Part shown: positions 32,009 to 64,000 of the stretch, one piece after another
Layout of the letters: each line of letters starts with the position of its first letter
How positions within the stretch are numbered: position 1 is the stretch's first letter
NCBI GenBank assembly: GCA_008632985.1
Contig: QPGO01000205.1
Span: forward strand, 1 to 64,000
Reading direction: 5' to 3'
Source: Psammoneis japonica
Lineage: Eukaryota
Length of the DNA stretch: 64,000 nucleotides
Notes under the pieces: generated by a model
Seen by the model: only the letters and a program-made list of their open reading frames with translations
Databases searched by the model: none
Told to the model about the DNA's origin: nothing
Made by a program: the position numbers and the translations under genes

Positions 32009-32749
32009 TCTAGGCATCTTAGGACATTTATCAGAATACCAGTACATACCAACTTCCCTCTAACCTCTATAACATTTACATAATTCGTGTTCAAACGACG
32101 GCACTACACCCTATGCCATTTTCATTGGATTCCCTCATTTTTCTTTCCGCACGACGCATGCAGGGAGCTGCAGGAAAAAACGGCTTGTGGCACTGCGGCG
32201 CGGATGACAAGCTACCGAATCGAAAAATTTGCGACATCGCAAAATTTGCGACAAATTCCGAATCCCCGCACAATCATCGCGCGGCGAGTCGAGAAACGAC
32301 CCTTGTCACCCTCCAAGATCGTCTTTGCGACGCGGCCAACATCCTCTGGTGCAATTCAAGGTGCAGGCGTTCTTTCTACTTCGATTAAGAAAAGATATGA
32401 TGCACGAGAAATGACAAGAAATCCTTATTTTCAAAGGAAATTGCCTTCTCGTGACAGCAACTCATGCCGACGCATCGCAAGATTTCAACAAAAAATGACC
32501 TTTTTGGATGATTACACCGCCTTTCCTCACAAACAAAACGTCATATAGCTCTTCATAATGATAATAATCTGATTGGTTTGTTATTTCATGTCACTTACAG
32601 ACCTTCGGTTGTCGAAACAGCATCATTTGCTCATTTGAAGCGAAAAATGAAGCACTCAGAGACCTCGCACGTGCTTTCATCGTGAAAAAATTCGAGCTAT
32701 TTGTTTTTATAAATTAATTTGCGATTCGCAAATTTTGCGTTTCAGTAGC

Positions 32750-34740: not shown

Positions 34741-35091
34741 CTCAGTGCAAATGCGATGAATGGTATGCCATCGGTTGCACCATGAAAAAGCCTGTTCATA
34801 AGTCAACCAATGTCGAACATATGCCATCTAAGCATCTGGCAACTGGCAAGTCGAAAGTGATTTCTGGTTAAATCAGTATGCGAACCCACCGTGCAAGGAA
34901 TGCCGCGATGCTGAGTCCGGAAAACTCGTGAACGAAAACGCGAACGCCCAAAGAGGCAATGTCGATCGCGTTCTTTCTTCCCCAATCTATCACGAACACT
35001 GGAAAAGAAATAAATCGCAACTCCTCTAGAGAGACAATGTCTTCATCCTTGCCCATTGATTGAAATTCTAAGCAAGAACAACTCTGAATCC

Positions 35092-38000: not shown

Positions 38001-38565
38001 GCTGAGAACAACAGCATTTCAGGCAATGTGGAGCAGTTCTTCGCGTCAACTCCCTCGTCAGCGTTGCAGACCGTGGACTTGGGTCTCAACCAGCTCGTTG
38101 GGAGCATACCACCATCAATCGGAAACTACGCGGAACTCGAAACTTTAGTAGTTTCCCAAAATCTCCTCACTGGAGGCCTTCCTTCGCAACTTGGTCAGCT
38201 ATCAAACCTGCAGAAATTGCTTTTAGACTTTAACTCCTTGACAGGACCCGTCCCTGATAGCTTGGCTCTCCTGCCGCAGCTTGGTAAGCATCATTTACGC
38301 TGCTCTCAAGTGTTTCCTTTCCAACTGTAGTAGCGCACTATCTTGTCCTCAATCCCATTTGCACTTCCTTTCTCAACTACGAACAGACGTTCTCTGGGTG
38401 AACGGGAACCGGCTTTCTGGAGATTTGAATGCGTTCTGTGTACGCGATGAGCTCCTCGATTCGCTGATGGCAGATTGCCTGGCTCCGGAAGAAATACGTT
38501 GCAGTTGCTGCCATTTTTGCTGCAATGATACATCCTGTTGCGATAGTGGCGGCTCTTGCATATAG
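35092..38565 (+). CDS. LRR receptor-like transmembrane protein, copy 2; join(35092..36376,36487..38283,38387..38565)
   Basis: Collinear paralog of copy 1 with the same intron positions and an intact frame after splicing. Confidence 0.9.
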
Positions 38566-38780
38566 ACATCTTAAGACATTTATCAGAATACCGGTACTTA
38601 CCAACTTCGCTCTAACCTCTATAATCTTTACATGATTCGTGTTCAAACGACGGCACTACACCCTATGCCATTTATTGGATTCCCTCATTTTTCTTTCCGC
38701 ACGATGAACCAAGTCGGAGCAGTCGTAACTTCTTCTAAAGTATTGTACAAAAAGACTGTCCTTTCCCATGCCCATGCATT

Positions 38781-40039: not shown

Positions 40040-42092
40040 GCGCGCCCACAAGAGACATGATGCACAGTTTTTTGGTCATCGCCTGGCAATTCCAACACCA
40101 TAGACCATGGACACTCCAATCATTTAATCAAACCTCGTGCAGCCACATTTCTTGTGCTGCAGGAACCTGTGGCGCTGAACAGTTGTCAAATGTAAAGTTT
40201 TCTCTGCCCCAGGCATGAATTCCTCAGATGAGGGTGGCAAACAAAACGACACGAGGGCTCTGGCGCTGCCGTCGAGGCGCTCGAGAGCAGGCTGACAAGG
40301 GCACACCCAAACCCCTGCAGCAGCAATCAAAAGGCTAAGGCTTGAGATGCCACAGCAGTCAACACTGTCAAATTTGCACCTGAGTTGTGGTGCATCTCTG
40401 TGTGCACCCTCTCGCGAGCTGGCTCTTCTTCTCTTTTTCTGCTCCCCCTCTTCTTTTGATGATCCTCGCCGATTTTTTGTGCCATCACAAAGTCAAAGGA
40501 AGGCTGCTTTTTCTCAGGAAGTGTTGGTTCAATGTCCACAAAGGGCAGCCAAATCCCTTGGAATGCACACAAGAGGAGTTGCAGCAGCAGCAGCAGCAGC
40601 TCTGTGAGTTTTTGTTTTGCTGCTGCTGTGAGAAAGCTCGCGCCTGCTGCTCTCCCCCCCTCCCACCAGCATCACAACTGGCAAACACCCAACAAATGTT
40701 CCTGTTTGCCTCAAAAAATGGCTTTCACTTCCTCAAGTTCTCATGCATGTGAAAAGAGCAGCTGTGTGTGCAGTGCCATGCACCACCCCCAAAAAATGTC
40801 TGACACCACACTGACACCTGCCTTGCTCCTCGTCACAATCACCATGAGTGACAGCTGCCAGAACATTGTGGACAGAAAGGTTGCATGCAGAGATGGACAA
40901 TGTGGTTGAGACAGTGCAGCACAGGACAGCAGCATTTGCTTTGTGTCACAGCCTGAAACAATGACGATGGGATGAGAGTGCTTGCCTGCAAGTTGCTCAG
41001 AGAGGTGAAGAGGAGTGTCAAAATCAGTCTCCAGTGAAGCACCATCTTCACCCCCTGCTCTCTTGACACATGAAAGCACGGAATCAAGAAGGGGGCTCAG
41101 GCACAACCAAACTCACTTGCAGCTGCCATGAACAGGATCTTGCGACGCTCTTGAGAGCAAAGCTCTTTTAAGATTTTTCGATGTTTGAGGTCTCCACATG
41201 AGTGCAGGTGGCCCTGTGGTGGCTGATGAAAAGCACTCAGATTTCCTTCTTGGGGATCTGGCAGCAAAATTTCCTTGAGCTGCCAAAGTCATTTTGCATC
41301 ATGCAGATGATCTTGAGCAGGAAAGACGAGCTTCATCATGGTGTCTGGCTGCATTGCTTCCCACAAAAATGATGGACATGCCCATTGAGCAAAGGACAGC
41401 AGGAGCTTGTCTTGCAACTGTGTGGCAGGGGAGCACTCAAGTCATTGTCATCAAACAAACAGTCAAGCTTGACAGCACTGGTGGCAAGCTGGGGGAGGTG
41501 TCAGCACCCTCTGAAAACAACGAGATCTTTTTCATGAGGTTTGATGCCCCCTCCATGACAAAGTGCAAAGAGGGTCTTTGTGAGCAAAACCTGGCAGCAA
41601 CTGCTGCACCTGTGCAAACTTGGCGATGAGATTGAGCACAGGGAACCACAACAGCAAGTGGGGCTTTGGCAGCAGTGTGCCCTCCTCTTGCAGAAACAGC
41701 AAACAGTGCTGTGGCTCACAACTTGTGCTGACCCCAGGATCTGCGCCAACAGCAGCTGCACTGCCCTTGGAGCCCTTCTTGTTGGGGCCACTGCTCTTGG
41801 CATTGTTTGCCTTCTGCCTGTCTGCCAGCTCTCTTTTGTTCTTTTTGGGTTGAAGAGCTTTGGGGGGGCAGGTTCTTTCCCAGCACCTGCGCAGCAGCAG
41901 CTCTGTGTGTGGCACTTGGACCACCAGCACCATGGCTCCTCTCTCGATGAAGTTGTCAGTGACAATGAACCTTCCTCACGACACAAGGCCCTGCGGATGC
42001 ATGAGTCACACTCTTCGTTGTTGTTGCAGACACATGATGATCTGCACATGACGTTGTGCGAATGTTCTTGGTGGCGTTTCATCTCGTCATCC
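40040..42092 (-). repeat. Degenerate copy of an unidentified multi-copy repeat (homologous to 51770-54480)
   Basis: Shared blocks cagttgtcaaatgYaaagtt, gcatgaattcctcaga, aaggcttgagatgYcacagcag and gagcact..gtcattgtcat; TA-depleted. Confidence 0.75.
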
Positions 42093-42284
42093 CGAGTGAA
42101 TTTGGATGGAGAAGTGAGAGAGGACAATGTTGCGATTGGTGACTGGTTGACATGTGTGAATCAAGTGGTGTTCTAACAACACTCTCACAATCTAATCAGG
42201 TTTGGGTTCGCATCAACAGTGTTGCGACTTTCCATCAGACGCAAGGTGTCGTGCTTGTTCTTTCATCACATTGAGATTCATTTG
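42093..42284 (+). repeat. 5' LTR
   Basis: Gap-free alignment with 48753-48944, 15 substitutions. Confidence 0.93.
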
Positions 42285-45200
42285 CTTCATCAGAGCCATG
42301 ACGAAAAAGACAGAACGAAATGGTTTCAAATGCAATCCGTCATGGACGATTGTTTGTTGTGTTGTTTGCATGGAACGTGCAGCTGTAGAAACGGTGCTGG
42401 ACTGCACGCGATGCATCAGAATTCGGACAGATGTGCACGAAGATGTGTCTCGTGTCACTTGTTGTGACATCCACAAAAACAGCTTGCAATGACAATGCTC
42501 GCAAAGACAGTCACTGTCCTCACACATGTGATGGGTGTGAGGGGACTGCGGTGTTGGGTGACATGCCCGAGCGTGTGCTCAACAATGTCAGTTGACATGA
42601 ACGACACAGGACTGATCACCCTGACGTCGGGTGGCCATGTGAACCCGTCATCACAACACAGAGAAAGTGTGGCCTCCATGACCATGCAGACTCACAGCCA
42701 TGTGTTCCCGGTGTGGGACCTTTGCACCCTTTCTTTATTGTGGGATGGCAGCAGCGGCAGCACCAGCAGCAGCACTTGCGGCATCAGCTGCGGCAGCTGA
42801 CGTTGACGCAGTTTTACAAGTTTGTGGTGTTGCTGACCAGAACGCAAGGGCGAGGTTGGTTTTCTGTGAAGGGTTCACGACTTTGGAAAACATCGCAGTG
42901 ATGGAGAGTGACCATGATGTGGAAGATGTGGCGCAAAGGGCATCTCATCGCATGGCGGCTGACGGACGTGTGACTCTCGGGACTGTCCAAATCAAGAACT
43001 TACAGGCATTGGTGTGGTGGTGCCAGGATTTGCTCAAACGGAATCAGGCATTGGTTGCGGCAAACTTTAATGTGGCAGCTGTGGCTGCAGCCCGAGATGG
43101 CAGACGTTGAAAAGGAGCGCACGGACTCGGACGCGTTGGTGAGCGGTCTTGTAAAGTTTGAGTCTGATGACTTTGATGTGTGCAAAGACGCTTTCTTGAA
43201 TCTCCTGGCACAGAAGTTTGGCATGTTGAAGGAGCCCCTTCGTCATGTTGCAAGGACGATGCCAGCTCCGGCTGCATTCACAGATGCTCAACAGCGGCGC
43301 ATGCGCCAGATGCCACTGAATGGTGCCGCATTTGATGAGGACAACCGCAACGTTTGTCGCATGTTGAAGGAATGCTTGGTCGCTGCAGCAGGTGGGCATG
43401 GATCGAACCGTGACACGACAGAAAATGGACGTGGAGCATTCAACGCATGGGTCGACCATTGCAACGGACAGGGCGAGTTGAGCAAGTGCATTCATCTGGC
43501 TATGGCCACTGTTGACACCTTGTTTTACAAGAAGGAAGGATCGCTCCCGTTTGAAAAGTTCAATGAGAAACTCACCAGTGCCTTTGCCACTTTGAACAAA
43601 TCACCGGATGACCGCAAATCTGAATGACAGAAAGTTGACATTCTTCTAAAAGGGATCAAAACAGATGACCCTCGTCTCATTGCAGCAACAGCTGTCATTG
43701 GCAGTCAGCACCCTCGTGACTTCGCGGGGGCATGTGCTCATTTCTCATCCGAAGTCTCTTGTTTGCATGCAGGTGCTCAGTTGGAAGCCCGGCGTCCTCG
43801 AAGCGCAAGATTTCTGAAATGAGCCGTGGTGGCGGTGGTGGCCGTGGCTTCTGTCGAGGTCATGGTCGCGGAGGAAGATTTGGACGTTGGGGTGGACGTG
43901 GACGTGGTGGTGGTCGCCAAGGTGGGGGTGGCAACTACACCACAATGATCAATGGAGTTGATGCATCCGATCCCACAAGAGCTCAGTCCTCAAGAATGGG
44001 AAAAGTTGCAGTTTGATGGAGGGATCAGCTGTGTTTTCCAAGCCCGCGAACGAATGGGACATGGACACGGTGGAGGCCGTGGGCCTCCCGCAGGTCGACA
44101 AGGACGTGATGGGGGCGGCAGGCATGCAGCCGAAACCCAAGTTTGTCAAGATGGCCAAGGCCAAACCCAACAACAGGATCAGGAGCAAAGAGCAGTGGGC
44201 GTGGTTGCGGCACTGACCATGATCGCGGTGGACGAAATGGATGCGCCTTTGGTCGGGGAGCCTGTGATGGTTCCACCTGACTTCTTGGGGTGGCAACAGC
44301 TGCTGGAGCATTGGCGCATTTGGCACACTTGTCGTTTTTGCTTGTGTTGCTCTTCTTGCTGTTGACCAAACCCCACCCAACATCTCGTTTCAAAGAAAAG
44401 GCGACAAAGAGGCGCATTGCTGTGACATCAAAACGTGTGATCCGATCAACGAGTTCCGCACAGATGACAAATTTGACGACACCCGGGTTCATTGCTCGAA
44501 ATGAATGTGATGCTCACGCGGACACTTGTTGCGCTGGAGCGAACTGGAAGCTATGGAGATGACAAATGAAGTGTGCAAAGTGCATCCATTTTTGGACTCT
44601 TGTGAGCCGATCAAACAGATTCCTGTGGCACGTTGTTGCACGGCATGGACAGATCCAGAAACGACTCGTGAATGTTTGCTGGTTGGTGACCAAATGCTCT
44701 GGTTTGGAACCAACATGGAACATTCGCTTTTGAACCCTAACCAACTTCGTGCAACAACACACCCGTACACGACAACCCTTGCGACACTCGAAACGGATTT
44801 GGCATTGAAGCTGATGAAGCTTTCATCCCTTTCAACACCACGGGGACAATTGTGTCTTTCAAGTCTCGTGTTCCGAACGGATTGGGAAGTGCAGAACTTG
44901 CCGGTTGTGCCATTGACAGGTGACGCATGGGATCCAGCACAGACAGATGTGGGCTTGCCGGAGCGCACTAGAGAGCAGGCGGAGATGCGTGCTGTTCGAT
45001 CATTGACCTCTGGCATGTGACAAGAACAGGTCTCGGAATTAAGGAGCGAGAAGGCGAAGTCCCAAGCAGCACGCTGGGGCGAGGTCGAAATGCAACTGTC
45101 ATCCATGTCCCCTGTCTGTCAACTTCAATCGTTTTGTGACCGGCTTGTCAGCTCAGTCAATGTGGCTTGCACGTGTCGTGACGATGTGGATGAAAAGCAG

Positions 45201-46420
45201 AGGGCAATCAAAGAGCTGCACAGCAAGGATCGGCACTCGAAAGTTGATGCTGAAGAGTTGGCTCGAAAATGGAGTGTCAGTTTAGAAACGGCAAAAGACA
45301 CCCTAAATGTGACCACTCAGTGCGGTGCACGAACGGCGACCCAGCCGATGTCACGAAGAGTGAGGGTGGATCACCTCGACTTGCATCAGAAGCGTCTGAA
45401 AGGAACATGGTTTGTGGACACTCTGATGTCAAAGGTGAAGTCCTTGCTTGGCAACACGTGTGCCAATGTTCATGCTCAGGGCAAATTCGTGAAGGTTGTG
45501 CCGATGACCGCAAGGTCGGAGGCAGGTTTGTCTCTCGTTGAATTCACAGACAACGAGGGTGCACCAGAATGTCTCATGTCGGATGGGGCAGGAGAGTTCA
45601 CTGGAAAGAGCACCGAGTTTGCAAGGCACGCACGACGCACGAGAATGCAGTTAAGAACATCGGAGCAGGGTCGGAAGAACCAGAATCAGGCGGCGGAACG
45701 CGAAATTGGTTTCTTGGCCAAGCATGGCGGCTGCAAATGACAAAGAAGAAGGTGCCAAGACGATCTGGGATTTGGTCTCGTTCATGAGTCGGATAGTGTT
45801 GCGCATGGCAAGAGGCAGAGACAGAGGACCGGACATGAAGAGGTCACCGGACAGACACCAGAAAGGCGAGCATTTGGACTTTGGTTTCTGGACATGTGTG
45901 GTGGTGGGACAGGCCCAACAAGCCGAGCCCTCGAAGGCTTGGACGGTGGCTTGGTGTCTCACACAAAGTTGGCTCCGATGTGTGCTGTTGGGTTGTCAAT
46001 GAAAGCGGCAAGATTGTCTCCAAAACATCTGTCGAGCACGTGACACAGGCTGACATGGTGCAACCAGACATTCGCGTTGAGATTGACAACTTTAATGAGC
46101 AGCTGGAAAAGCGATTGGATGACACTGACTTTGTCTCACAGGGCGATGAAGCAGCACCTGCATTCGTGTTGGACGATTTTGCAATTGACGGCAACCCTGG
46201 TGTTGAACATGAGGGCGGCGTCATGCCTGAGGACGAGGAACATGGCGACATGCTGCTGCCCGACGAACGACTGGACGATGATGACGAGCAGGCAATTGAT
46301 CAATGCCTGGGAATGGAACTCATGTTTGACATTGGAACCGACGGTGAATGACGCGGTGTTGTAACGAAACGTGCAAGAGGACAGGATGGGCATCCAATTG
46401 GGACTGGGCATCAAAACCCA

Positions 46421-48560
46421 TTGTTTGACACTGGCGAATGCGAAGTGGAACATGCCGACGGCACCACAGATGAGCACACAGCCAATGTAATTGCCAAGAA
46501 CATGTTCGCTCAGGTCGACAGCAAAGGCAACCAGCACTCCATCTTACACGAAATGCAGGACCACGAGAGGAGTGACGATGCAGTGTTGGTTGCTGACGGC
46601 ACCGTACGAACCACTGACGGGAAGGAGTTGAAGAAAATCACGACAAAAGGATGGAAACTGTTGGTCGGATGGAAGGATGGCAGCTCATCTTGGGTCAAAC
46701 TCAAAGATCTGAAGGACTCTAACCCAATTGAAGTTGCTGAGCATGCTGTTGTGAACAGGTTGACTGAGGAACCTGCCTTTGCTTGGTGGGTCACGCATGT
46801 CCTGCGCAAACGGAATCACATCATGTCCAAGGTTAAGAAGAAGTGCTGGCGCACGACTCACAAGTTTGGCACCCGATTGCCCAAGTCAACGGAGGACGCT
46901 TTGCAGACAGACCAGGAAATGGGGACAGACCGTTGGGCTCGTGCAATCAACAAGGAGATGACAAAAGCAAAGGTGGCATGGCGCGAGCATGAGGCTGAAA
47001 CCCCTCAAGTTGTCCAGGAAGGCAAGAGCACAACTTTGTGTGGTTGTCAGGAGATCAGGTGCCACATGGCATTTGACGTTAAAATGGATTTCACCAGAAA
47101 GGCAAGGTTTGTAGCTGGCGGCCACATGACAGAGGCTCCAGCATCAATCACTTGTTCTGGCATGGTTTCTAGAGACAGTGTGCGACTTGGATTCTTGCTG
47201 GCAGCTTTGAATGGAATCAACATTGCAGCGATTGATCTGGAGAATGCTCATCTCAACGCACCGTGCGCAGAGAAGATGTGGTTCGAAGGCGGAAAGGAAT
47301 GCGGCGAGCATGAAGGGAAGGTGCTTGTTGTCACTCGGGCATCACATGGCTTGAAGAGCTCGGGACACTCTTGGAGGTCCGCACTGTCATCGGTCCTACG
47401 TGACTCAGGCTTTGAATCGACGAGAGCGGATCCAGACGTTCACTTGCGTGTGGCGACTCGTGAAGATGGGCACGAGCATTGTGAAATGCTTTTGGTCTGT
47501 GTTGATGACACACTGATCATTTCCCATCAAGGGAAGTCCATTGTCACTGCAACGGGTGAACACTGTGCCATGAAGCCCGGCAGCAAAGGAGAGCCAGAGG
47601 TTCATCTTGGAGCTAACGTCGAGAAGGTTCAGACTCAAGATGGGTGCACAATCTGGGCGAGTTCACCGAGGTCACATGTCAAATCGGCAATTAAGACTGT
47701 GGAAGGTCTGTTGGATGAAGATGGCAATGGAGAGGTTCTGAAGAACAGCGCAAAGGATCCACTGCCCCCGAAGCACAAACCGGAGCTGGACGTGACAGAC
47801 GAGTTAGGCCCCGACTTGGTGGACAGGCACTTGCAGCTGACAGGGATTTGTCACTGGGCGATCGAGTTGGGTCCTGTCGACATCTTGCATGAGGTTTCAA
47901 TCCTGTCTCAATGTCAAGCTAATCCGAGGAAAGGACACCTTGAAGCATTGTGTCATGTGTTTGCGCATGTGAAGAAACACCAGAACGTTGGACGCATTGG
48001 ATTCGATCCGAAGGAACCGGTGGTTGATGAGTCTGTTTTCAATTCGAACGCGGACTGGACCGAGTTTTACGGGGACGTTGAGGAGGAACTGCCACCACGG
48101 GCACCAAAGCCTTGTGGCAACCCAGCAAACATCCATGCATTTGTTGACGCTAACCATGCAGGGAACGTCGTTGCTCGCAGGTCGCACAGTGGAGTTCTGA
48201 TGTTTGTCAATGACGCGCCAGTGACATGGTTCAGCAAGCGGCAGAACACGGTGGAATCGGCAACGTTTGGAAGTGAATTGGTTGCGATGCAGATTTGCAA
48301 GGAGTTGATTGTTGCTTTGCGTTGCAAGCTTCGTATGTTTGGAGTTCCTCTTGAAGGACCGGCAAGCATCTTTTGTGACAACCGCAGTGTTGTGAAGAAT
48401 GTGAGTGTGCCTGAGTCGGTTTTGCACAAGAAGCACAATGCCATCAACTGCCATGTTGTGTGAGAAGTGGTCGCAGCGGGAATCATTCATGTTGGCAAGG
48501 AGGACACGGAAACAAACTTGGCAGATCTGCTTGCGAAAATGGTTGCAGGAGAGCGACGAT
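46421..48560 (+). pseudogene. Copia pol RT-RNase H region, inactivated
   Basis: 680-aa ORF with RT and RNase H motifs and essentially no Tyr; stop at 48461 (probable CGA->TGA). Confidence 0.92.
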
Positions 48561-48752
48561 GGAAGCTTTGCTCCTGTGTCTTTTGGCAATGTCCCGACAC
48601 CAAGGCCAGACACCTGTGGCTTGCGCCCACGTGCCTCGGCCTCCCAAGCCAGCATGTCTGGTGGTTTAATTTGGGTTTTGTGGTTTACCTCTCTGTGAGA
48701 GGACGTTGCATGTTTGGATGAATCGGCACCGTCATTGCCGTTTCGCGGGGAC

Positions 48753-48944
48753 CGAGTGAATTTGGATGGAGAAGCAAGAGAGGACAATGTTGCGATGGGT
48801 GACTGGTTGACATATATGAATCGAGTGGTGTTCTAACAACACTCTCACAATCTAATCAGGTTTAGGTTCGCATTAACAGTGTTACGACTTTCCATTAGAC
48901 GTAAGGTGTCGTGCTTGTTCTTTCGTTACATTGAGATTTATTCG
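48753..48944 (+). repeat. 3' LTR
   Basis: Follows the PPT and is followed by the TSD atcc (48945-48948); distal part retains TA. Confidence 0.93.
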
Positions 48945-49086
48945 ATCCAATCAGTCACGAATGGAGAGCAAGCGCGAACTCGTAAACTCGAGTCGTGCGG
49001 ACGGATGAGGAGTCGTCGTTCATCGTCGTTGGTCGCGTTCACATAATGTTGGTTGACTGCTGTGAAGCACTGCACGGCAAATCAAC

Positions 49087-50599: not shown

Positions 50600-53500
50600 A
50601 CCTGAACGATCACAGCAGTTCTGTGCCGCAGTTGGCACGCCCGCTGTGCAGCAGCAGGCTGTCCTCCTCCTTTGCGTTTGTGCCCTCCGTCCAATCTTCT
50701 GGTTGCGCTGAAGAACTTTGGGACAGCAGTTGCCAGGAGAGCAAAGCTGGGTTCGCTGTGCTGTGCCAAAGCAGGGGGGGGGGGCACACTTGCAAGGTGG
50801 GGGGCAAGCTTCCTCCAGAGAGTTTCTTCTTCTGTTGTTGTTGTTCCAAGTGCCTCCATGGTGATTTTCTCCTGGTGGGTGGTGGGTCTCAATGGTCTCG
50901 TTTCGTGGCTCTCATTGTTTGTTATTTTGGGCCACACAACAATCTCTGATCAAAGTTGGGGGCTTTTGCCCCAGTGGCTCAATGGCCTGCCTTGGCTCTT
51001 TGTGGTGGCTTGCACTTTTCTGCACCAGATGGTGCTGAGTTCACCTGCATGCTTTCAAATCCAGGCTTGATGCAGAATCTCCCAACCCACCATGGCACCT
51101 TTTTCCATCAATGACATTGATCTGTTCCCACCACAGTGTCACCATGGCTGACAATGTGCGCTTGAAAAAATGAAAGTGCCAAGAACAGAGTGGGCTTTTC
51201 TGGGCTTGAAGCAGTCAGGAAGTGCAAACAGGAAGTTGTTGGCAGCAACACGCCATGTGCGTTGGCACAAAAATCACACATGCAGAAAATTCATAAAGAA
51301 AAATGTTGAAATGCAGGGTTCAAGCCAATTTTTTTCTTTCCCGTGCTCCTCCTCTTGGTGACAAAGCCTCAAGGAATTTTCTCTAAAAAAAAATTGGCAC
51401 TTTGCATTGTTGCTTTTATGTGAGCAACATGATTTGGCACATCTCATGTCCAAAGGTCTGTTTTCAAAGTTTCGTTGACACTTCCGCAGTGATGCCACAG
51501 CATGATGAAAAATTTTCAAACATGGAGTTAAGGTGTGCGCAAAGGACATTGTTGTGTTTGTCATCAAAAAGCAAGCTCACAAAGTGTCAACTGCTGTGAC
51601 CCAAATTGACTCCTTGAGGTCATGGCTCATCATTTGCAAAGCATGTGAAAAGCACAATGAATTGATTTTCTGCACATGAGTTTGCACCAGAAATTGGCCC
51701 AAACCAAAAATTTCAAGCTTGTGTCCCCTGCACATGGCTTGTGGGTGTGGGAGAAAAATGGTTGAACAATTCAGTTGTCAAATGCAAAGTTCCCCCCAAG
51801 CATGAATTCCTCAGAGATGCAGATCAGGTGTTGAACAAAAAGACAGGGCTGGTGTCATCACACATCACACACCTCTGAGCAATCCAGTGTGGGTGGGCAC
51901 AAAGTTGCCAGCTTCTTGCTGCTCACAAAAAATGCTGCTCTTTTGCTGCCACAGTGCAGTGCACCTGAAACCACATGACCAGCAGCAACCATGAGGCCAA
52001 GGCTTGAGATGTCACAGCAGCCACAAACACACAGCCGCTCAGTCTGTGCCTTTTGCTGCTTCATGATGCAAGTGGAGATAAACAAGTTGTCTTTGCTGCA
52101 CACTTTCATCCCCTTGCCTTTCTTTTTTTCTCCTCATGACAAGCCACTTTTGTGCTGCTGCCACAAAGCTAAAAGATTTTTTTCTTGGAGAAGAGTTGGC
52201 TGGCTGGGTGTCTTGTGTGGAGCAGTTTTTGAGAAAACAGGAGAAGCACCAGCAGCTCCAAATCCCTGAGCTGGAAAGTGCACAATGAGGGAGAGTTGTG
52301 GAACAAGCCAAGTCTTTTTGCTGTCTGCCAAGAAAGCTCCCCCACACCCCAGCACAACTTTTGCAAAAACCCTGCTGGCACTCCCCCTGCATCAAGAATG
52401 GCTGCAGCACATCTAAAAATGGCTGCAGGCTTGCCGAGGGAGTGCAGAAGTCCATTTCCCATGGAACAGAGCACACTGAGCCCATGTGGACTGACGGATC
52501 TTCTTGTTCATCCGATGGACACACAGTTGTCAGCCATGGGGCTGCATCACCTTTTTTGCTTGCTCTGATGTTGGCTGGGACACACGTCACCAAAAAGACA
52601 GCAGGCCACTCAAGTGGCTCCACTCATTTTGAAGGCAATGCTGAGTTCTCCAAACCAAGTGCCGCTGTCTTGGCCACAATTTATTGTGCAGGATGCAGTG
52701 CAAACTCCATGTGCATGTCTCTGTTTTTCTGGAAGGCTTGCTCAATGATCTTGAGGTCATAAATTTTGAGCATTTTTGTTGCCACTTTTCTGCTGATTGT
52801 CACAAGTGCATTGTGCACCAACCTTTGACATGCTTGCATGATCAACCAGCTCTTGCATCACTCCTCCATTGATGCAAAGCCACCAACATCAACAGTGTCA
52901 CAGCACAGGCAGGATTTGAGGCTGCAGCATCAGCAAAACAATGCTGGCCTCCTTTGGGCACCACACACTGAGAGTCATTTTGATGTGATGCACCCAGCTT
53001 CTTTTTGCATGTGTGTGGCTGTGTGCGACAGCCAAGTGGTGTGTGGCTGTGCACTGACACTGCTGACATGCTGGAGTTTGACACTTGTTTCAGACTGGCT
53101 TTGAGAGTTTTGATGTTCCACTCAGCTTCTTTTTGCATTTGTGGCTCTGTGCCACAGCCAATTGGTGTGCAGCCATGCACTGATGCTGCTGACATGCTGG
53201 AGTTTGGCAATTGTTTCAGACCAACTTTGATGTGGGCAAAAGCAGCAGCAGCCAGCACTGAGGGAAGACACTTGCGTGCAAGTTGCTCAAGGTGAGGAGA
53301 TCCATCAAAATCAGTCCCCGGCAAAGATGCCACCTTGTTTGCCTTCTTGCTTGCTCTCCCACAACACATGGAAGCACAGCAAACCAAGAGACCTCCTGAG
53401 CAGGTGGCCAAACTTGCAACCACTCCATGAAAAGCAACTGGCACTGCTTGGCAAAGCTCTCAAGAATTTTTCAATGCTCGAGGATGTGCAAGTGGCCCCA

Positions 53501-54480
53501 TGATGGCTGCAAAAAAGGCAGCACACAGGACCACTCATTGAACCCAGCAAAAAAAGTTTCCTTTGACTGCCAAGCTTCTTTTGCCCACAGATGATCTTGA
53601 GATGGAAGGAGGAGCTGCACTGCAGATTGTTTTGCCTTGTGCAAATGATGCACATCATGCCCCTGCTGAACAAACCAGGAGCCTGTCTTGAGCTGTGAGG
53701 AGAGCACTTGGGTCATTGTCATTGCACAAATGGTTGAGTTTGGCAGCACCAGCAAACTGGGGGAAGTGTTGGCACCCCAAACAATGAGAGCTTGTCAAAA
53801 CCAAAACTGCCTCATGAGAGGATTGACAACACCCACCAACAAGAGTGTGCTCTCTGGAGATGAGGTGCAAAGTGGTTCTTCTCAAGCAAAGCCTGGTGGT
53901 GACTTTTGCACCTGTGCAAATTTGGAAATGTGCACGTGCAGGAAAAAACAACAAGCAGGACTTTGGAGCATCAGCCACCCTTGCAGAGAGAATGCACAGC
54001 AAACAGTGCCAAAGCTCACCTCTGGCACTTGCCAGGATCTGTGCCCACAATGGCTGCAGCACTGTCCTTGGAGCACTTGTTGGGGCAGCTGTCCTCAGCA
54101 TTGTGTGCCTCTGCACCACACTTGGTGTGCCCGCTGCCCTCTGTCCAACCCTCTTGTTGTGCTGAAGAGCTGTGGGACAACAGCTGCTGGGAGCACAAGT
54201 TGTGTTCACTGGGCTGTGCCAAAGTGTGGGGTGCCTCCGTGCCCATGCTTCAGTGGATCCCAATGATGCTGTTTTATGTCCCTCAGTGTCTTGCCTCTTT
54301 TTTTTTTTGCCACACAGCAACATCTGATCAAAAGCAGGGGCTTTTGCCGCAGCGGCTCAAAATGGCCGGCACCTTTGTTCTTGAGCTTTGGCAGCTTTTG
54401 TGTCTGGTTCCTGATGAGGTCTCCTCTTTCCTGTTGCACCAAGCGCGGAACCCGAAGCTCTTGCTGAAGCGGTCGGGAAG
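50600..54480 (-). repeat. TpA/CpG-depleted island F containing two copies of the unidentified repeat (50600-51070 resembles 54100-54480)
   Basis: Example: gctgaagaactttgggacagcag...ctgtgccaaag versus gctgaagagctgtgggacaacag...ctgtgccaaag. Confidence 0.78.
52969..53230. repeat. Approximately 130-bp tandem duplication
   Basis: cagcttctttttgcat...ctgctgacatgctggagtttg...tgtttcagac occurs twice. Confidence 0.85.
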
Positions 54481-55869: not shown

Positions 55870-58800
55870 ATAGAGACGTCACCAAAAATCGTCCCGCCCC
55901 GGTGCTTTCACGTGCAACAAAGGCACCCCACAAAAAGTTGGCTCCATTTCCAAATGCCCAACACCATGAACAATGCATGCCTGGTGCATTCTTGCAAGAC
56001 ACCAGTTCAAGGCATTCACACAACGAGCTGATGGATGGCAAGACGATTGGAGTTTCTGAATTTTTTTGTGCTGGAAACTTCGTGCGCACTGCACGCATCA
56101 TCGCTGAAAAACGGCGACATGACGGTGGTGCATTGTCACAATGACAGCAATGACAGCAACGTGTCCCAGAGTCTTTTGTCATCACAGACATTTGGTTCAT
56201 CAAGTTCAAGAATGCATCCAGTCATGACAGTCCCAGGGAGCAATCTCCGCTCGAAAGCAAAACATTGTCGCACCAATGCCGAGCTCTGTTTCCGACCTGC
56301 CGCTGTTGTGCATTCATCATTGAACAGTTGAGACTTCGTCAGGGGGACTTTCTTTGCATGTTCATGTTCTAAACAGTGTGATCTGTCATCATGACAAGTG
56401 CCCATTGCAAAGTCGTCCTGCATGAGCTTGAGAAAAATGTCGTCATCATCGTTGGCGTCGACAGCAATTTGTCGCGCAAATCACAAAAAATGCACGACTG
56501 TTGTCTGTCTGACATTGTGCATTGCACCACTGTGTGCTCATTGTGCGCATGCCTTAAAGAGCAGGAGACCAACAATGCTTGCACCTCAGGCATTTTGTGG
56601 CTCTAGCCGGGGTCAAAGTCCAGCCAGTTCTTCCAAAAAATTCGAGTGGAGCGGGTCATGCGGGATTCAAGACACATGACTCGGGGTGCAATGGACCCTT
56701 TCTCAACAAAGAGATGGCCAATGACATCAACACAAAGCACATTTTATGGCAACAGTCTTCTTTGAAAGTCATCATTGACATTGTGACAACTGTGTTTGAC
56801 CTGTTTCATGTTTCAAATGGACGAAGCAATCCATGAAAACACATTTGCAAGCCACACTTTTCCATTTTCAGAATTGACAATTGCGTCTCTGCCAACAATC
56901 TAGCAAACACACAAGCAAGGGGGCACTTCCATCACCTGACTTTGTTCTTCCACAGGAGAGTGTCATCAATGGGTGACTTTTTCAACGTTGTTTGACTGCT
57001 TCTTTTGAACAGTGCGCCAACTTCACTCTGCATTTTCACTCCAAAATCCACCCCATGCCTCACCCTCTCCCACTCAAAAACACTGGCTGATCGCATTGCA
57101 GTTGCTTCATCAAAGTCTTGAAAAATGGTCCTCTTGTCATTGGCGCTGCTGAAACGGGTTTGACGATGGGAGTGCAACATTGGATTCGTCGATGAGCTCA
57201 CACGACAATTGACGCTGTGAAAATTGGCTGCATCTGCATGACAGTTGGGTGAGACAACAAGTGGCAAGACTTTGGCACAACAAGAGCTCCGCTTCAATTG
57301 TGCGTCACTTGCCTTTGCATGTCCGCTGGCTTTTGCTCTCAGTGGGTGTCAAAAATCCGGCAAATGAGTGGTTGATGAAGACTCGGTGCGTGACATGGCG
57401 TCATGAATGACTGAATTGTCATGTTTGTCAATGGCTCCCCACAAAATCAAAATCATGGAGAACACACTTAGATTCCTGTCCAACAGATGCCAATTGATTG
57501 CATGCCAAATGCGTTTTTGCAGAGTCAAAGGTTTGGACAACTTTCTTGGCATTGCAATCATCACCATCATTGGCACGAGTTCTGATCAAATTCCCTGCAA
57601 CAGCACCGCGGTGACAGTCTGCATGCTCATCAGGAGTGCGGGTTGGGACCCAAAGCAGCACGGGCTTGGTTTGAAACAACACACTTTTGGCTGGCTTTGC
57701 TTTTCTCAGACTGCTTTGACGCAACAACCCTGACACCACGCAAGCCTCACAGCAGACCCACAATGAGCATCTCAGACCTTGCTTGTGAGCACCAGTTGTG
57801 CAACAGCATCAAAGAAGTGCAGGCTGTGCAGAGCTTGATCTTGCGCCGGCAGGTTCTGTGAGCACCCCACCCCACAACAAAAGAAAGAGGAGCACACAGC
57901 AGCCCTGACAAAAACCACTTCAACATGCACTTGTGTTTGAACAACCATGGTCATGTTCTGGCCAGCCATCAAGAGTCGACAAGCAACACACACAACACAG
58001 AGCATCAACAACAAAAGGGCAACACACGCAAGATTTGAGCTTGCATCAATGAAGACAATGACCTTGAAAGAAGACTTGTGATTTGGAGCAAGACAACATG
58101 CCTGGCTGAGTGGCAAAAACACCAGCTGCACACACCACAGCTGCCAGTGTCGGAGAGCACTGTGTGGTGGCAAGCAGTGGCAGCAGCATCTGCTGTCTGC
58201 TGTCTCTGTGCACTGAGGAGTGCATCTGCTGTCAGGGTGTGTTGTGGCAAGCAGCAAGAGCAGTGCATTGATCTGAGGCTGGCAAAAGTGGCTCTGGCTC
58301 CTGATCCATGCTTGCATCATGGGAGCACATTTTGATGCCAGATCCCAAAGGCAAGGACACATGAGCTGGATTGCTGGCAATGGCAGCACTTCCACCCTGC
58401 TTTGCCTGTGCAAAAGCTCCAAAAAAGGAGCCCCAAGTGGCCAAGGTTGCAAACACCACATGTGGGAGATCCCAAAAATTGGGCAAGTCACTCAAGAAGT
58501 GTGTCAGCTTTTAAGAAGTGTGTCGACTTTTAAGCTCTCTCTGCTTTTGCACAAGCAGCCTTGTGCAGTGCCTTGCAAGCAAGTCATCGAGCTTCTCTTT
58601 GTTTGATCTTGAAGAGTTGGTTTCCACTGTGGTGTTGTGTCAATGGTCTTGAGCAAGCAAGAATTTCATGCCAGACTGCAGTGCTTCTTGAAATCCTCGG
58701 TGCACTTGTGTTTCTCAAATGAAGTGCAGCCCCCTTCATTGTGCAGCCACACTTCTGGCTGCTTTGCATGATGCGTTTGCTCTGCTCCTGCAGCTGCTCT

Positions 58801-61800
58801 TTGGATGGTGCACAAGCAGGATTTTTTCCAAAGATGCTTGGAAACAACTTTCACGCCTGCACACATTTCACAACAAAAAGCATGGAGTGCAACATGCAAG
58901 TCCCAAGAAAAACAACAAACTCCTTCAACTTTGATCATTTTGACAATCAAAAGGCAAGTGCACACAAAAAAACAAAAGTTTTGGGTGCATTTGCCTTTCA
59001 ATTTGGGGAAAAAATCATTTTGAAGGAGTTCATTGTGCCAAATGAAAAAATGGCCCAATGATGGATCGCGCACATCTGTGCATCACCCAGAGCTGGAACA
59101 GGCCCAGGAGACTTGTGCACATGCAAAAACCTTTTTTTATGAGATTTTTGATGTTCGTTTCCATTGAACACAAAAAACACATTTGGGAGGAAACTGCACA
59201 TGCCCAATCAAATTGTTTGACTCTCACACTTCACTGTGGTGAAATTTTAGTCACAGACACTGGGGCAGGTTGAGTCCTCTGGTGGTTTGCAGTGACCAAA
59301 GACTTGCTCCAGACTCAGGTGCACACATGCACACAAAAAATGCTCGTTTTTGCATGAAATGCATGGTCCCAACTTGTGGCGCCATTCTCGTTGAACGTTG
59401 CAAGATGATGATTTTCAAATGTGTGATGGCATGGGCACATGCAGAACGGTCTTGTGCGTGTGCCCATGTCAATTTTTTTTTAGGGCGCATTCAATTTTTG
59501 GATGTTGAATGGCACCGTAAGATGTGGGCTTGATTTTTCACCAGCTTCAATGAAATTTTTATTTGCCTGTGTTGAGCTTTTGTTGCAATTGAGTGACAAG
59601 CTTCAATGGCTGCATGGGGGTCAACACTGGTGGAGTGTCTGCTGACACAAGGCACCAAAATGGAGGATGAAAGAAAGCCACGACACTTGTGCGGCAAGCA
59701 GCTCCCATTCTGATGGCAACCCATTTCATTTCTTGCACCTCCATTCACTGGGCAAGGACTGCATCTCTGAAAGCAGAAAAGGTGGTGAGTCACAATCCTC
59801 TTCTTCCTTTCTCACCCCTCATTTCTCTTGCAATGTCACATGCTCTCTGGTGCTGCCACCCCATGCGCAGCAGATGAAGTGTCCAGAGTGCAGCAAGAGC
59901 AGCCTTCAATTGGTGCTCTTTGTCATTGTTGGCATCCAGAGGGAGTGCTTGTGTCATTTGGCCATCAACTGGAGCTTTGTTTTTGACTTGGCAATGCCAT
60001 TGCCACACCATTCAAAGTGGCAACATCTCTGCTGGAGCCAGCAGCCAAAGTGGGTGCATTCCCCAAAGACAAAACAGGAGCAGCGTCTTGCCTTGAGGTC
60101 TGTTTGTTCTGCCCAGTGCTGGATTTGTGCCTGTGCGGCCAATGCCTTTGCAGCAAGGCATGTGTTTGTTCATTGCTTTGACACTCTTTTGTGTCAGCGT
60201 CTGCAGGTCAGCACAAGCCATTGGACTGATTCAACAAATTGCAAAAAAAAGTTGTGCAGCTGCTTTGTGAGTCAAGGAGCAAACATCAAGAATTTGATTC
60301 AATCCCCCCCTGCGTGTTTTCCCAAAGAAATGCATTTGTCAATTTCAACCTTTAAGACTGAATTAAATCACAAAAAAATTTTGATGGCAAATTTGGCATC
60401 ATTTTTTATGAAATTGGATGGTGCACAAAAATTCTTGTTGTCAGATGCAAAAAAGGGGCAAGTGTGTGCCACCCAAGTCAGGAACAAGTTCAAACATGCT
60501 GACAGCAGAATCCTTTTCTGTGGCAACATCATGGCCAGGTGGTCCAAGGCACATGTGCAGCCCATTTGACCATGGTGGCAGTTGCTGCCAGGAAAAGGAA
60601 AAAACACATGTGCACAACACATCTGGAGCTTCATCTGTCCTGCATTTTGCATGGCATCAGCACAGTTGCGAGAGCAGCTGGATCTAATCCAGAACAATGG
60701 GAGCAGCTTGGCTCAGCCAGCTTGAGAGTGCAGCATGCCACAGAGAAAGCCAAGGTGGCACATTTTGTGCAGGGCACCAGCACAGCTGTGAGAGTGTTCC
60801 CACAAATGAGGACCCATCAGCTGGGTCTGATCAAGAACAATGGGGGGCAGCTTGGCTCAAACAGTGTGGGTGCACAGCATGGAGAAAGCCAAGGTGATCA
60901 AAGTTGAAAGGAACCATGTGCAGGATGGCAGAGTGGAGCCATGGACCTCTCCAGTTCATCAGTGTTCAACTGTTTAAGCTGCTTCTCCACAGCCTCTTTG
61001 AAGCTGGCATGCAGGGTGCAGAACGCTTTGCTGCTTCGGCAAGAATCTCCCTTGCCAGTCATTTTGCAGTGATGTTCTGAAGCAATCCTGAAGACAACTT
61101 CTCCTGAGAAAATTTCCTTGAATGCATGATCCCTCATTTTGATCACACAGGAGAGGTGCTGCAGCAACCTGCAGTCTTGCAGCAGTTGTGAGAGGAAACT
61201 CTGGATCAATGTTGTTGCTTTTGTCCGGCAACTGCAACAACAGAATCTTGTGCAACAAGTGCTTTTTGAATTGCCAAGATGGCCTCATCAGCCTCGTCCA
61301 TTTTGTGGTCACTGGCTGGATGATGCAAGAAGAAAATCTTTTCTCGAGGCAATGCATGTGTGACAGGTCTCACACCTGCCATGTGACAAAACATTTTTGC
61401 AAAGAGACCAAAACAAAGAAAGCGCAACAACAAGTGGCAAACATCAACAGGAGCTTGCCCTTGCACTGCACTCATCTCTTCAGAGGTGAGAACCATTGTG
61501 CAAGTTCTGCAGAGATGCACACTCACAACTGGAAGAGTGCTTTGCGCCTTGCTCTCAATCATCAACTGTCGGTTGCCGCTGGAGTGCTTGTGGACAATGC
61601 CTTTCAGGAATGCATGACAGCTTTTTGGCATCATGCCAAAAAGGATCAATGTAGATTGGCTTGCTGTCAGGAAGAGGGTGCCATTTGTGATTGTTCGTGC
61701 GCCCGCTTTTCCAGCTCTTGCCACGCTTCTCATGAAAACAATGAAGGCAGCTCCTCTTGGCTGGCAGACGGGCTCTGCCTCTCATCCCACTTTTGGACTT

Positions 61801-61950
61801 CCTTTTTTGGCTTGAGAATGGCAACACGCTGCTCATCCATCACCTTGTTTTCATTCCATCGCTTCTGCTTCTCTTTCGGCATGGTTGCGACTTGCTCAAC
61901 GCGAAGATGAAATGTGCTTCTACATGCATGACATTGTGGCATGTAACACA
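55870..61950. repeat. TpA/CpG-depleted degenerate repeat island G
   Basis: Composition; fragmented coding-like remnants not assignable by eye. Boundaries approximate. Confidence 0.75.
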
Positions 61951-62783
61951 CACACGCAAACACTTCGTAGATTCGCACCAGTGCGCCACAATCGTTTCTC
62001 AAATGTGACATCTGTAAAAATCTACATGCAAGCAGACACGTGTGTTTCTCACTGGATTGTTCTTTCTCGGGAAAGGCGCGTCATGCCATTTCGCACACTT
62101 GCACATCTGATCCGCACTGTAGCTTCTGCTGTACGCAGTCTAGTGAAGAGACTGGTGTGTTCCCTGCTGAATGTCACAGAGCGCTCAAGAAGCACGAAGC
62201 GCAACAGAAGACAACACAAAACCGACCGCATCTTCTTTCACGACGACGCTATCGATATAAACCATGTTGTTTGCCAAAGAGGTTTTACCTTCCTTTGACT
62301 CTTGGAAACGTGATTTTGCACGCTCAGAGCATGTGAGCAAGACAACGTCTTATCATGCTGCGGTGATTATTTCGCACGATGTCTTCCAGTCACGACTCAA
62401 CGTCATTCTGGTTGCATCTCACGACTGCAACCCAGACTCAGATTTTCTCTTCGAAATAATTGGCTCATCACAAAATCGATTCAAACAGAAGCAACGACAT
62501 TCGTCATAATTTCTAGACAACGACTTTCAACAAGCGTCTGTTTACCTCTGTCGCTGTTCACATTGCTGCCAACCTCCGAGGTCTTGTCCATCCTACTCAG
62601 CTGTGGGACTGTATCTCGACTGGTTGTAGAGACCAATTTACGCGTTGACGAGAGCTCCTGACCGAGTCATCGTCACGGACGCTTTCGGTTTTTGATTTTG
62701 AAGCAAACCCGGGAAATGGCTGAGTCTCTCTTGCTTCTCTCATCTTCACTCTAACAAGAACCTCCCATGCTGCACTCTCCATC

Positions 62784-64000
62784 ATGGCTGCCATCGATCC
62801 AGATGTTCTGGCGAAGGCGTTTGCCGATGCAATGGCCGCCAACGCCGCGGCGACCACTCCTCCGGCTCCAACCAAGCCGTTGCGTGGTGGAATTCACCCA
62901 ACCCACGGGGTTTACATTGGTGGTTCCAAACTCAACAACAACTGCGAACAATCCAACGATAGAACCTGCCGATTCGCCTCTCAGCGCCGTCATCCCAAGG
63001 CTCTCGACTCGATAGAACGATCTCTCCGCGATCAACAAGCTTCCGCAATGACTTCCAAGTTCAACGGTCGACTTGAGATTTCGGACGGTCCCATCAACGA
63101 GCTTGACAAGGACCATTTCGTCAAGACTGTTCGAGATCTAGTAGAAGCCCACGGTCAGCAGACGTTCTACCATGTCAAGGACAGCGACGACAAGGTTCAA
63201 CATATCTTCGACCATCTTCACGAGTTCACTGTGACCGATCTCGTGAACGAGTACACGGTTGGGAAAACAGCTGCCGATGACACCAAGTACGACGAGATCG
63301 AGCTCGACGACATCGGGCTCTCTCAACTTCTCGTTCACTCAAGAATCACTAATGCCTTTCGCGAGAAAATCGAGACCAAGTTCAACCATCTTTCGGACTG
63401 CCAAGACTACCCTGGATCTGTTCTCTTCATGATGGCTCTCGACACTTGCAATGCTAGCGCTCTAACGGACATTGAGACGGCTAAGAAGCAGCTAGAAGAC
63501 CTTAGTTTGGTCAACTGTCCCGGCGAGGATTGCACGGACTTTGCTGCCGAAGCTCTTTGCATCGTGAAAATTGTGCAGACCGACTGCGCGCTTCCGGCAA
63601 ACACAAGCTCCAAGCTGCTCCACAAGATCTCCTCCACGTCCTCTGAATGCTTCAATCGCCGAGTCTACAACAAGCTCGACGACGTCAAGGCTATGGAACG
63701 CAAGTGCCGCCTCAAGAATCCTGCTGACATCGTGTCCGATAGCGATTGCAGAACGCTCGGACCAGTCGGCATCATTGCGTGGATTCAAGAGCAACACAAC
63801 GAACTCGTGAAGGATGGGGAATGGCCTGCATTAGTCGCCAAGCTACCCGAGAGCAATCTTTCGACTACGGATGACCCTGGGAAGACGAAGCACTGTTATG
63901 GTTGCGGTCTCGAGGGGTGCACCAAGAAGACGTGTCCGAAGTGCAACGCCAAACCGCCGCGCGACGATCCTCCTCCCAATCCGCCGCCTGCAGCCGACCC
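62784..64000 (+). mobile_element. Gag ORF of a second diatom Copia-like retrotransposon (5' part, runs off the right edge)
   Basis: Stop-free frame from ATG 62784 to the window end, absent from the ORF track: MAAIDPDVLAK...PGSVLFMMALD..CPGED..GEWPAL..CYGCGLEGCTKKTCP (zinc-knuckle-like). Confidence 0.8.

What the first reader, a model, noticed from the sequence alone, without database searches (positions are those of the whole stretch)
62000..64000. Young Copia apparently caught part-way: TpA loss precedes CpG loss
Seen: the gag frame is fully open, CpG-rich and still has several Tyr codons, yet shows probable Y->C sites (VNCPGED, TDCALP, SECFNRR, ERKCRLK, SDCRTLGP). The 42-49 kb element has lost nearly all TA but keeps many CG. 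Old islands have lost both. Inference: a three-stage series in which TA conversion is fast, cumulative and not a by-product of completed CpG decay.
Basis: partly seen in the sequence, partly recalled or inferred. Interest (0 to 1): 0.75.

Follow-up and report, generated by a model that had tools for sequence, protein, structure and literature searches.

The report
TA erasure outpaces CG decay
In this diatom, each copy of a jumping gene has its TA letter pairs rewritten to TG or CA after it lands, far faster than its CG pairs decay but at the same time, which looks like a mutation-based defence against mobile DNA for which I found only one published parallel, in another alga.

Summary
Observation confirmed; interpretation partly. 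62388 onward is a full-length Copia element (234-bp LTRs, 5-bp target duplication, one 2247-codon frame) in a diatom. The five Cys are TA losses: His is the alternative codon in sister copies; outside homologues have Tyr at four sites and never Cys. Across 32 copies, 61-97% of TA sites are lost against 3-75% of CG sites; the window copy is the least converted (131 of 335 TA kept, 488 of 515 CG kept). Losses are independent per copy, post-insertion, on both strands, cumulative, context-dependent (TAY fast, YTAR slow) and not linked to nearby CpGs. The 'stages' are mostly two concurrent decays at very different rates: CpG decay has already begun in the youngest copies, slow TA sites fall along with it, and new TAs are under-represented in old copies. 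Some slowing and copy-specific exposure remain. Likely mechanism (inferred): chromatin-guided adenine deamination of DNA; no enzyme identified. The same signature is published for viral DNA in Bigelowiella natans (bioRxiv 10.64898/2026.01.13.699255), and this scan noted it many times elsewhere in this genome.

The parts
62383..62387 (+). 5-bp target-site duplication CTTCC (left copy; right copy lies beyond the window, after contig position 69629)
   Evidence: single copy in the empty paralogous site L107
62388..62621 (+). 5' LTR, 234 bp, ends AGT...ACT; 96.6% identical to the 3' LTR (contig 69396-69629); 6 of 8 differing letters lie at 5 TA sites, 1 at a CpG, 1 other
62724..64000 (+). gag part of a single 2247-aa gag-pol frame (first ATG 62784); integrase-associated domains (weak) precede RVT_2, the Copia order
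63516..63518 (+). VNCPGED Cys codon: TA>TG loss
   Evidence: TGT 17, CAT 7, TAT 2 of 26 copies; Tyr in 11 of 13 homologues
63585..63587 (+). TDCALP Cys codon: TA>TG loss
   Evidence: TGY 23, CAC 3; Tyr in 12 of 12 homologues
63648..63650 (+). SECFNRR Cys codon: TA>TG loss
   Evidence: TGC 17, CAC 9; homologues Tyr 2, Phe 6, other 4, Cys 0 of 12
63705..63707 (+). ERKCRLK Cys codon: TA>TG loss
   Evidence: TGC 18, CAC 8; Tyr in 12 of 12 homologues
63747..63749 (+). SDCRTLGP Cys codon: TA>TG loss
   Evidence: TGC 23, CAC 3; Tyr in 12 of 12 homologues
63558..63560 (+). EALCIVK Cys codon: CpG decay, not TA loss (internal control)
   Evidence: CGC in 24 of 26 copies
61897..62387 (+). 5' flank, homologous to an empty paralogous site at contig 85.5-85.9 kb; over both flanks 26 TA losses beside the element against 2 in the paralogue
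42092..48945 (+). second, older Copia family member (LTRs about 42092-42282 and 48752-48942; RVT_2 in frame 46352-48463); TA mostly gone, CG largely kept, TA-rich 3' end beside a gene
51001..54000 (.). old island, TA o/e 0.04, CG o/e 0.11
56001..61500 (.). old island, TA o/e 0.04-0.05, CG o/e 0.54 (56-58 kb) and 0.17 (58-61.5 kb)

Best explanation
After a Copia copy integrates and is silenced, two mutation processes run on it side by side. (1) Ordinary 5-methylcytosine deamination turns CG into TG/CA slowly. (2) A second, adenine-directed process turns the A of 5'-TA-3' into G on either strand, giving TG or CA. The median TA site is lost about 58 times faster than a CpG, the slowest tenth only 2-5 times faster, and 43% are too fast to measure. 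Different ages therefore look like stages. Shown (about 0.9): direction, post-insertion timing, independence between copies, both strands, cumulative course, context, sparing of LTRs beside genes, loss in the flank. Inferred (about 0.55): the chemistry is deamination of adenine to hypoxanthine in chromosomal DNA by a TadA/ADAT2- or ADAR-like enzyme guided to silent chromatin, fixed by replication, in many small hits. Inferred: the transposing source lineage escapes the process, and converted copies rarely or never transpose, so the effect is defensive.
For: Direction: outgroup Tyr and TA/TG/CA three-state columns. Post-insertion: in 23 LTR pairs, of 296 TA site pairs 127 lost one side and 45 lost both to different states; of 112 both-lost pairs 67 share a state against 70.8 expected under independence; 9 of 17 TA steps created by the insertion joints are lost (read by eye). 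Independence: spread of pairwise state sharing z 1.09 against 0.92-1.14 in permutations. Context: TA kept in the youngest class YTAR 0.57, RTAY 0.11; A>G hazard is 3-4 times higher before C/T than before A/G; non-TA adenines show the same 3' pyrimidine bias, NAY 125 of 1290 sites against NAR 60 of 1481, ratio 2.4, P 9e-9, which points to one adenine-reading agent. Domain guidance: LTR TA retention follows the TA content of the adjoining flank (rho 0.76, 42 ends); flank of the window copy lost 26 TA against 2 in the empty paralogue; an 88%-identical tandem gene pair keeps 113 shared TA. Continuing: C>T giving TA is seen at 26 of 3832 against 488 of 8477 in CC/CT contexts in old copies, and 0 of 36 new private TAs lie in the fastest context (P 0.0007). 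Source exempt: implied pre-loss TA o/e 0.79, and 1.0 at codon position 3|1. Candidates exist: ADAT2-like, TadA-like and two A_deamin-domain genes; no alkyladenine glycosylase match.
Against: No enzyme is tied to the process; the deaminase genes found are not expanded and the A_deamin family tested has homologues across diatoms, while the outside gag homologues keep their Tyr. Endonuclease V is present and the glycosylase blank is not proof of absence. No strand-coordinated tracts were found, which a processive single-strand deaminase might leave. TA exposure is sub-proportional to CG exposure (exponent 0.70; 0.44 with old copies) and one old copy (L059) has lost 46% of CG yet keeps 21% of TA, so a constant-rate model is not exact. 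Interior TA loss does not follow flank state (rho -0.09). Methylation and chromatin state were not measured. Ages are sequence proxies.
Confidence: 0.6

Rival explanations
1. True staging: TA conversion acts mainly in an early window after insertion (for example while silencing is being set up) and then fades, while CpG decay runs on.
For: Exponent 0.70 (0.64-0.78) in 26 close copies, below all 12 simulations (0.74-1.08); an intercept model fits slightly better. Slope 0.50 with old copies; L058, L059 and L061 have TA exposures like much younger copies. YTAR retention goes 0.57, 0.41, 0.30, 0.25 while CG kept goes 0.96, 0.90, 0.77, 0.52.
Against: Slow sites keep falling with CG loss over a tenfold range; free-exposure slope 0.81 is only just below simulation. 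New TAs are depleted in old copies and absent from the fast context. CpG decay is already present in the youngest copies. Old copies come from other subfamilies, which blurs their site lists.
Confidence: 0.2
2. Error-prone repair synthesis (a Y-family polymerase such as Pol eta or iota, recalled to put G opposite T) triggered by repair of methylated or deaminated CpG; TA loss is a by-product of methylation.
For: TA and CG exposure correlate across copies (r 0.85); both are confined to mobile DNA; weak A>G excess at AA, CA, GA.
Against: No relation of TA retention to CpG distance (P 0.09) or density (P 0.95) or to a lost CpG within 30 bp in the same copy (P 0.27); no strand tracts; TA is hit hundreds of times more than AA, whereas Pol eta is recalled to hit both. 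LTR-end sparing is clear for TA but not significant for CG. Y-family genes were not searched.
Confidence: 0.15
3. The changes arise before integration, by A-to-I editing of element RNA or reverse-transcriptase error, and are inherited from mutated parents.
For: An ADAR-like A_deamin gene family is present; ADARs favour a 5' U (stated in the Mettrop preprint).
Against: TG and CA outcomes on both strands; the two LTRs of one copy mutate independently; joint-made TAs and flanking host DNA are hit; no shared states between copies.
Confidence: 0.03
4. Cys is ancestral, or the pattern is composition or assembly error.
For: Cys is the majority residue at all five sites among the copies; 128 of 337 TA-class sites show no TA in any of 26 copies.
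Against: His alternatives at all five, Tyr in homologues; the no-TA sites are enriched for RTAY-type flanks and vary independently; no CG-class site exceeds 42% loss (partly by definition, CG in at least half); public contigs of run X1 cover the region at 95-100% identity (possibly the source sample).
Confidence: 0.02

Closest known systems
TpA hypermutation of integrated viral DNA in Bigelowiella natans (Mettrop et al., bioRxiv 10.64898/2026.01.13.699255; read: abstract, introduction, results, discussion, conclusion = parts 1-3 of 5, plus passages; methods and supplements not seen)
   Same: A:T>G:C transitions at TpA giving TpG or CpA by strand, confined to foreign DNA, uneven between units, deaminase proposed but not shown.
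   Different: There: a chlorarachniophyte, two viral regions, rates measured in MA lines, TpA only partly depleted; the text has no occurrence of 'diatom', 'CpG' or 'flanking'. Here: a diatom, LTR retrotransposons, near-saturation, a TAY/YTAR context rule, weak NAY off-target, edge sparing, and a time course against CpG decay.
Repeat-induced point mutation (RIP) of ascomycete fungi (search listings and abstracts only; details recalled)
   Same: Targeted, cumulative transition mutation of repeats with dinucleotide preference and leakage into flanks.
   Different: Opposite chemistry: RIP makes TpA from CpA by C>T; here TpA is destroyed. A tandem gene duplicate is spared and one of two paralogues is hit, which argues against plain homology recognition; no strand tracts.
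CpG methylation of diatom transposons by DNMT5 (Hoguin et al. 2023, PMC9998398; passages)
   Same: Explains the slower CG>TG/CA component confined to mobile DNA; cytosine methyltransferase genes are present.
   Different: Does not act on TA; methylation was not measured here and the DNMT classes were not assigned.
Diatom Ty1/copia (CoDi) elements (Maumus et al. 2009, PMC2806351; passages)
   Same: LTR element with RVT_2 after integrase-associated domains, short LTRs, 5-bp target duplication.
   Different: Ends are AGT...ACT, not TG...CA (the paper lacks TG/CA in 3 of 26 families); CoDi group not assigned.

Membership tests
Ty1/copia LTR retrotransposon | Two LTRs with a short target-site duplication | tested here: met
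   234-bp LTRs 96.6% alike; 5-bp duplication identical in 18 of 30 copies, 6 more differ by TA-type changes; empty paralogue
Ty1/copia LTR retrotransposon | Copia-type RT (RVT_2) downstream of integrase | tested here: met
   RVT_2 E 3.7e-34 at aa 1694-1939; gag_pre-integrase and SH3_retrovirus upstream but weak (E 2e-4, below cut-off); no rve hit
Ty1/copia LTR retrotransposon | TG...CA LTR ends (usual, not universal) | tested here: not met
   AGT...ACT; exceptions known in 3 of 26 diatom families
Ty1/copia LTR retrotransposon | Placement in a CoDi clade by RT tree | not tested
   no reference RT set fetched
B. natans-type TpA hypermutation | A>G / T>C almost only at TpA, both strands | tested here: met
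   non-TA A>G about 2-3 per 1000 site-copies
B. natans-type TpA hypermutation | Confined to integrated foreign DNA | tested here: met
   genic TA o/e 0.53-0.55 against 0.04-0.13 in islands and element 2; some loss in flanks
B. natans-type TpA hypermutation | De novo rate about 1000-fold above background, on in some lines only | not testable with these tools
   needs MA lines; copy-to-copy scatter (sd 0.40 against 0.19-0.36 simulated) is only suggestive
B. natans-type TpA hypermutation | Same enzyme | not testable with these tools
   unknown in both; an ADAT2-like gene is present here but does not discriminate
RIP | C:G>T:A transitions, mostly CpA>TpA | tested here: not met
   TA is lost; CA>TA is depleted
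RIP | Triggered by duplication as such | tested here: not met
   4-kb, 88% tandem gene pair keeps 113 shared TA; 26 against 2 losses between paralogues
RIP | Premeiotic timing and RID/DNMT4 dependence | not testable with these tools
   no life-cycle or mutant data
5mC-driven CpG decay (CG component only) | Symmetric CG>TG/CA far above other C>T, in mobile DNA | tested here: met
   mean CG loss 0.093 per site against 0.9-1.4 private non-CpG C>T per 1000 site-copies; TG and CA outcomes about equal
5mC-driven CpG decay (CG component only) | 5mC present at these CpGs | not testable with these tools
   no methylation data

The most novel reading that the evidence does not exclude
Diatoms of this lineage run a chromatin-guided natural adenine base editor on chromosomal DNA. 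It reads 5'-TAY best and other NAY weakly, hits every silenced retrotransposon copy within a small fraction of its CpG-decay time, keeps working in old copies, stops at gene borders, and leaves the transposing source lineage untouched: an A>G mirror image of RIP, shared with a distant alga and perhaps old in the SAR group.
Probability: 0.4. Interest if true: 0.85.

Novelty: new variant of a known kind. Interest (0 to 1): 0.6.

Why it matters
A targeted A>G DNA mutator against mobile DNA has, in my searches, been described once (viral regions of B. natans). A diatom family of 30-odd near-identical copies turns it into a measurable time series: per-context rates relative to CpG decay, independence between copies, edge sparing and an exempt source lineage. 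That gives a motif to match against candidate enzymes and a cheap read-out for knockouts. It also means LTR-pair dating and consensus proteins in this genome are badly biased (Cys becomes the majority where Tyr was ancestral). The increment of this particular finding over what the scan already noted in this genome is the kinetics, not the phenomenon.

Tried and rejected
Literature: six searches for this pattern in diatoms or transposons found only the B. natans preprint; most subscription journals are not in the library, and the preprint's supplements were closed and may hold context data. Reads: one holder, X1, as contigs only; no RNA holder listed. Laying X1 and X2 could not test mosaic or heterozygous TA/TG inside the multi-copy element. 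In single-copy DNA at 51.5-61.7 kb, 17 sites differ from the assembly: 7 CpG-type, 2 TA/CA, 2 TG/CA, 6 other (contexts); X1 may be the source sample, so this is not evidence. No allelic contig for the insertion was found, only a paralogue. A first exposure fit (slope 0.35 against 0.75-0.81 simulated) was distorted by its prior at saturated sites and was replaced. Strand-coordinated tracts and patchy retention: autocorrelation at most 0.02. Interior TA loss against flank state: none. I suspected the RT motif HVDD was a Tyr>His loss; it is His in all 30 copies that cover it, so this was dropped. An exact 24-base pattern search gave 12 places, all already known. Deaminase survey showed no expansion or chromatin-domain fusion in the stretches read; the N6-adenine methyltransferase and Y-family polymerase families were not searched. 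Family 2 gave only a weak TA-CG correlation (rho 0.46, P 0.056, n=18), and its window copy belongs to a divergent subfamily, which inflates its CG loss.

Full report
Setting. The window is G000:C206:1-64000 of a 91-Mb eukaryotic assembly. Many full-length silicon-transporter matches (24 matches, best E 2e-208) make it a diatom. The window alternates genic DNA (TA o/e 0.53-0.55, CG 0.93-1.0) with islands nearly free of TA.

The element. It spans contig 62388-69629: 234-bp LTRs 96.6% alike, ends AGT...ACT, a CTTCC target duplication, and one 2247-aa frame with RVT_2 behind weak integrase-associated hits. A paralogous empty site on the same contig holds CTTCC once.

Copies used. The gag search gave 42 matches from 40 of 79 candidates scored. 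I fetched 34 stretches of up to 10 kb, dropped one without LTRs (L065), aligned 33, defined sites on 26 close copies (window copy plus L033-L057), treated six as old (L058-L063) and left L064 out of rate fits. Eight partial matches were not fetched. Sites were classed by column tallies: 337 TA-class, 517 CG-class, 26 ambiguous, 5383 other columns.

Observation. At the five named codons Cys is the majority state, but His is always the second state and Tyr survives at one; homologues from elsewhere have Tyr at four sites, Tyr/Phe at the fifth and never Cys. So the Cys are parallel TA>TG changes. In 62388-64000 the window copy has lost 44 of 76 TA sites and 8 of 128 CG sites; over the whole element it keeps 131 of 335 TA and 488 of 515 CG, and 46 of 70 codon-position-1 TA sites are changed. 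It is the least converted copy. Its open frame is not proof of function: single TA losses cannot make stops, and at codon 2217 it reads Gln where 13 of 24 copies have a stop. The 42-49 kb element and the old islands are as described.

Timing and place. TA losses are independent between copies (pairwise z spread 1.09, permutations 0.92-1.14; the 128 sites with no TA left behave the same). The two LTRs of a copy mutate independently (67 of 112 both-lost pairs share a state, 70.8 expected). TA steps made only by the insertion joints are lost in 9 of 17 cases (by eye). Outcomes fall on both strands with no tracts. An LTR beside TA-normal DNA keeps 70% of its TA, one beside depleted DNA 23% (17 and 25 ends, rho 0.76; four ends with odd joints and the partial copies left out); the CG effect is smaller and not significant. 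The flanks of the window copy have lost 26 TA against 2 in the empty paralogue (P 3e-6); neighbouring depleted DNA may contribute to this. A tandem LRR gene pair is not purged. This is a DNA-level process bounded by domain, not triggered by duplication alone.

Order of events. As raw fractions TA loss (0.61-0.97) and CG loss (0.03-0.75) are far from proportional. But TA sites differ hugely: relative to CpG the 5th, 10th, 25th and 50th percentiles are 1.9, 4.6, 15 and 58-fold, and 43% are saturated. TAY is fast, YTAR slow. With free site rates, TA exposure rises with CG exposure at slope 0.81 in the 26 close copies, against 0.83-1.13 in simulations of strict proportionality; a power fit gives 0.70 (0.64-0.78) against 0.74-1.08 simulated. 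CpG decay is under way in the youngest copies (3-5% lost, tens of times the non-CpG C>T level). In old copies C>T changes that would make TA are 8-fold under-represented and none of 36 new private TAs lies in the fastest context; subfamily divergence is mixed into these counts. So the three 'stages' are mainly snapshots of two concurrent decays. Against a pure clock: slope 0.50 over all 32 copies, L059 with 46% CG lost but 21% TA kept, and copy scatter beyond chance, with the window copy the low outlier (log residual -1.1, simulated minimum -0.74).

Not a CpG by-product. TA retention is unrelated to CpG distance or density, or to a lost CpG within 30 bp. Adenines outside TA show a weak A>G excess with the same 3' pyrimidine bias (ratio 2.4, P 9e-9), which fits one adenine-reading agent.

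The source. Counting implies TA o/e 0.79 before loss, 1.0 at codon position 3|1 where loss is mostly silent, above the host genes' 0.53. None of the 33 aligned copies keeps more than 39% of the TA sites, and converted states are not passed on. I infer that the transposing lineage is exempt and that conversion follows silencing; unscored candidates could hold less converted copies.

Mechanism. Adenine deamination in DNA is my best reading (inferred). The genome has an ADAT2-like and a TadA-like gene, two A_deamin-domain genes, endonuclease V, many cytosine methyltransferases, and no match to the alkyladenine glycosylase family. One A_deamin family is widespread in diatoms; ADAR-like proteins without dsRNA-binding domains are reported in protists including Phaeodactylum (PMC11946409, passages); Tad1 is pan-eukaryotic (PMC3239186, passages). 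None of this singles out an enzyme. The 5' T preference of TadA-type editors and the behaviour of Pol eta/iota are recalled, not tested.

Comparison and verdict. It works like the TpA hypermutation of B. natans and is not RIP. Searches found no report for diatoms. Earlier notes of this scan describe the same phenomenon at many places in this genome and led me to the preprint. New variant of a known kind; interest 0.6.

Noticed in passing
window 62388-62621 and sister copies L033-L064: LTR ends are AGT...ACT rather than TG...CA, fixed by 5-bp target duplications; the 42-kb element's LTR also appears to start with AGT or close to it.
   Followed up: partly
L081, L082, L083 (G000 C301 and C297): Cytosine methyltransferase genes lying in TA-depleted DNA (TA o/e 0.07-0.10), two with stops in the match; they may be carried by mobile elements.
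   Followed up: no
L043, L047, L054: Three copies with different 5' flanks share the same sequence right after a 3' LTR that ends three bases short; a shared extension or recombination product.
   Followed up: no
L037:1025-1562: Two 5' LTRs in tandem about 300 bp apart.
   Followed up: no
window 28145-32154 and 34742-38704: Tandem pair of LRR-protein genes, 88% identical, with normal TA content.
   Followed up: partly
L066:9423-9718 (contig about 70480-70780): A 295-bp repeat with many copies genome-wide in the 3' flank, followed by a second repeat family.
   Followed up: no
contig C206 68286-68288 (beyond the window): The RT catalytic motif reads HVDD in all 30 copies that cover it, where YVDD is recalled as usual for Copia; family trait or an old fixed loss.
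   Followed up: partly
L071:313-1785: A guanine-deaminase-like domain in one open frame with a 2OG-Fe(II) oxygenase.
   Followed up: no
G000:C38:226311-230342: Three silicon-transporter domains in one 1511-aa open frame.
   Followed up: no
L084:2348-3508: A DNA-methyltransferase match with a weak chromodomain hit, as described for some diatom DNMT4 proteins.
   Followed up: no
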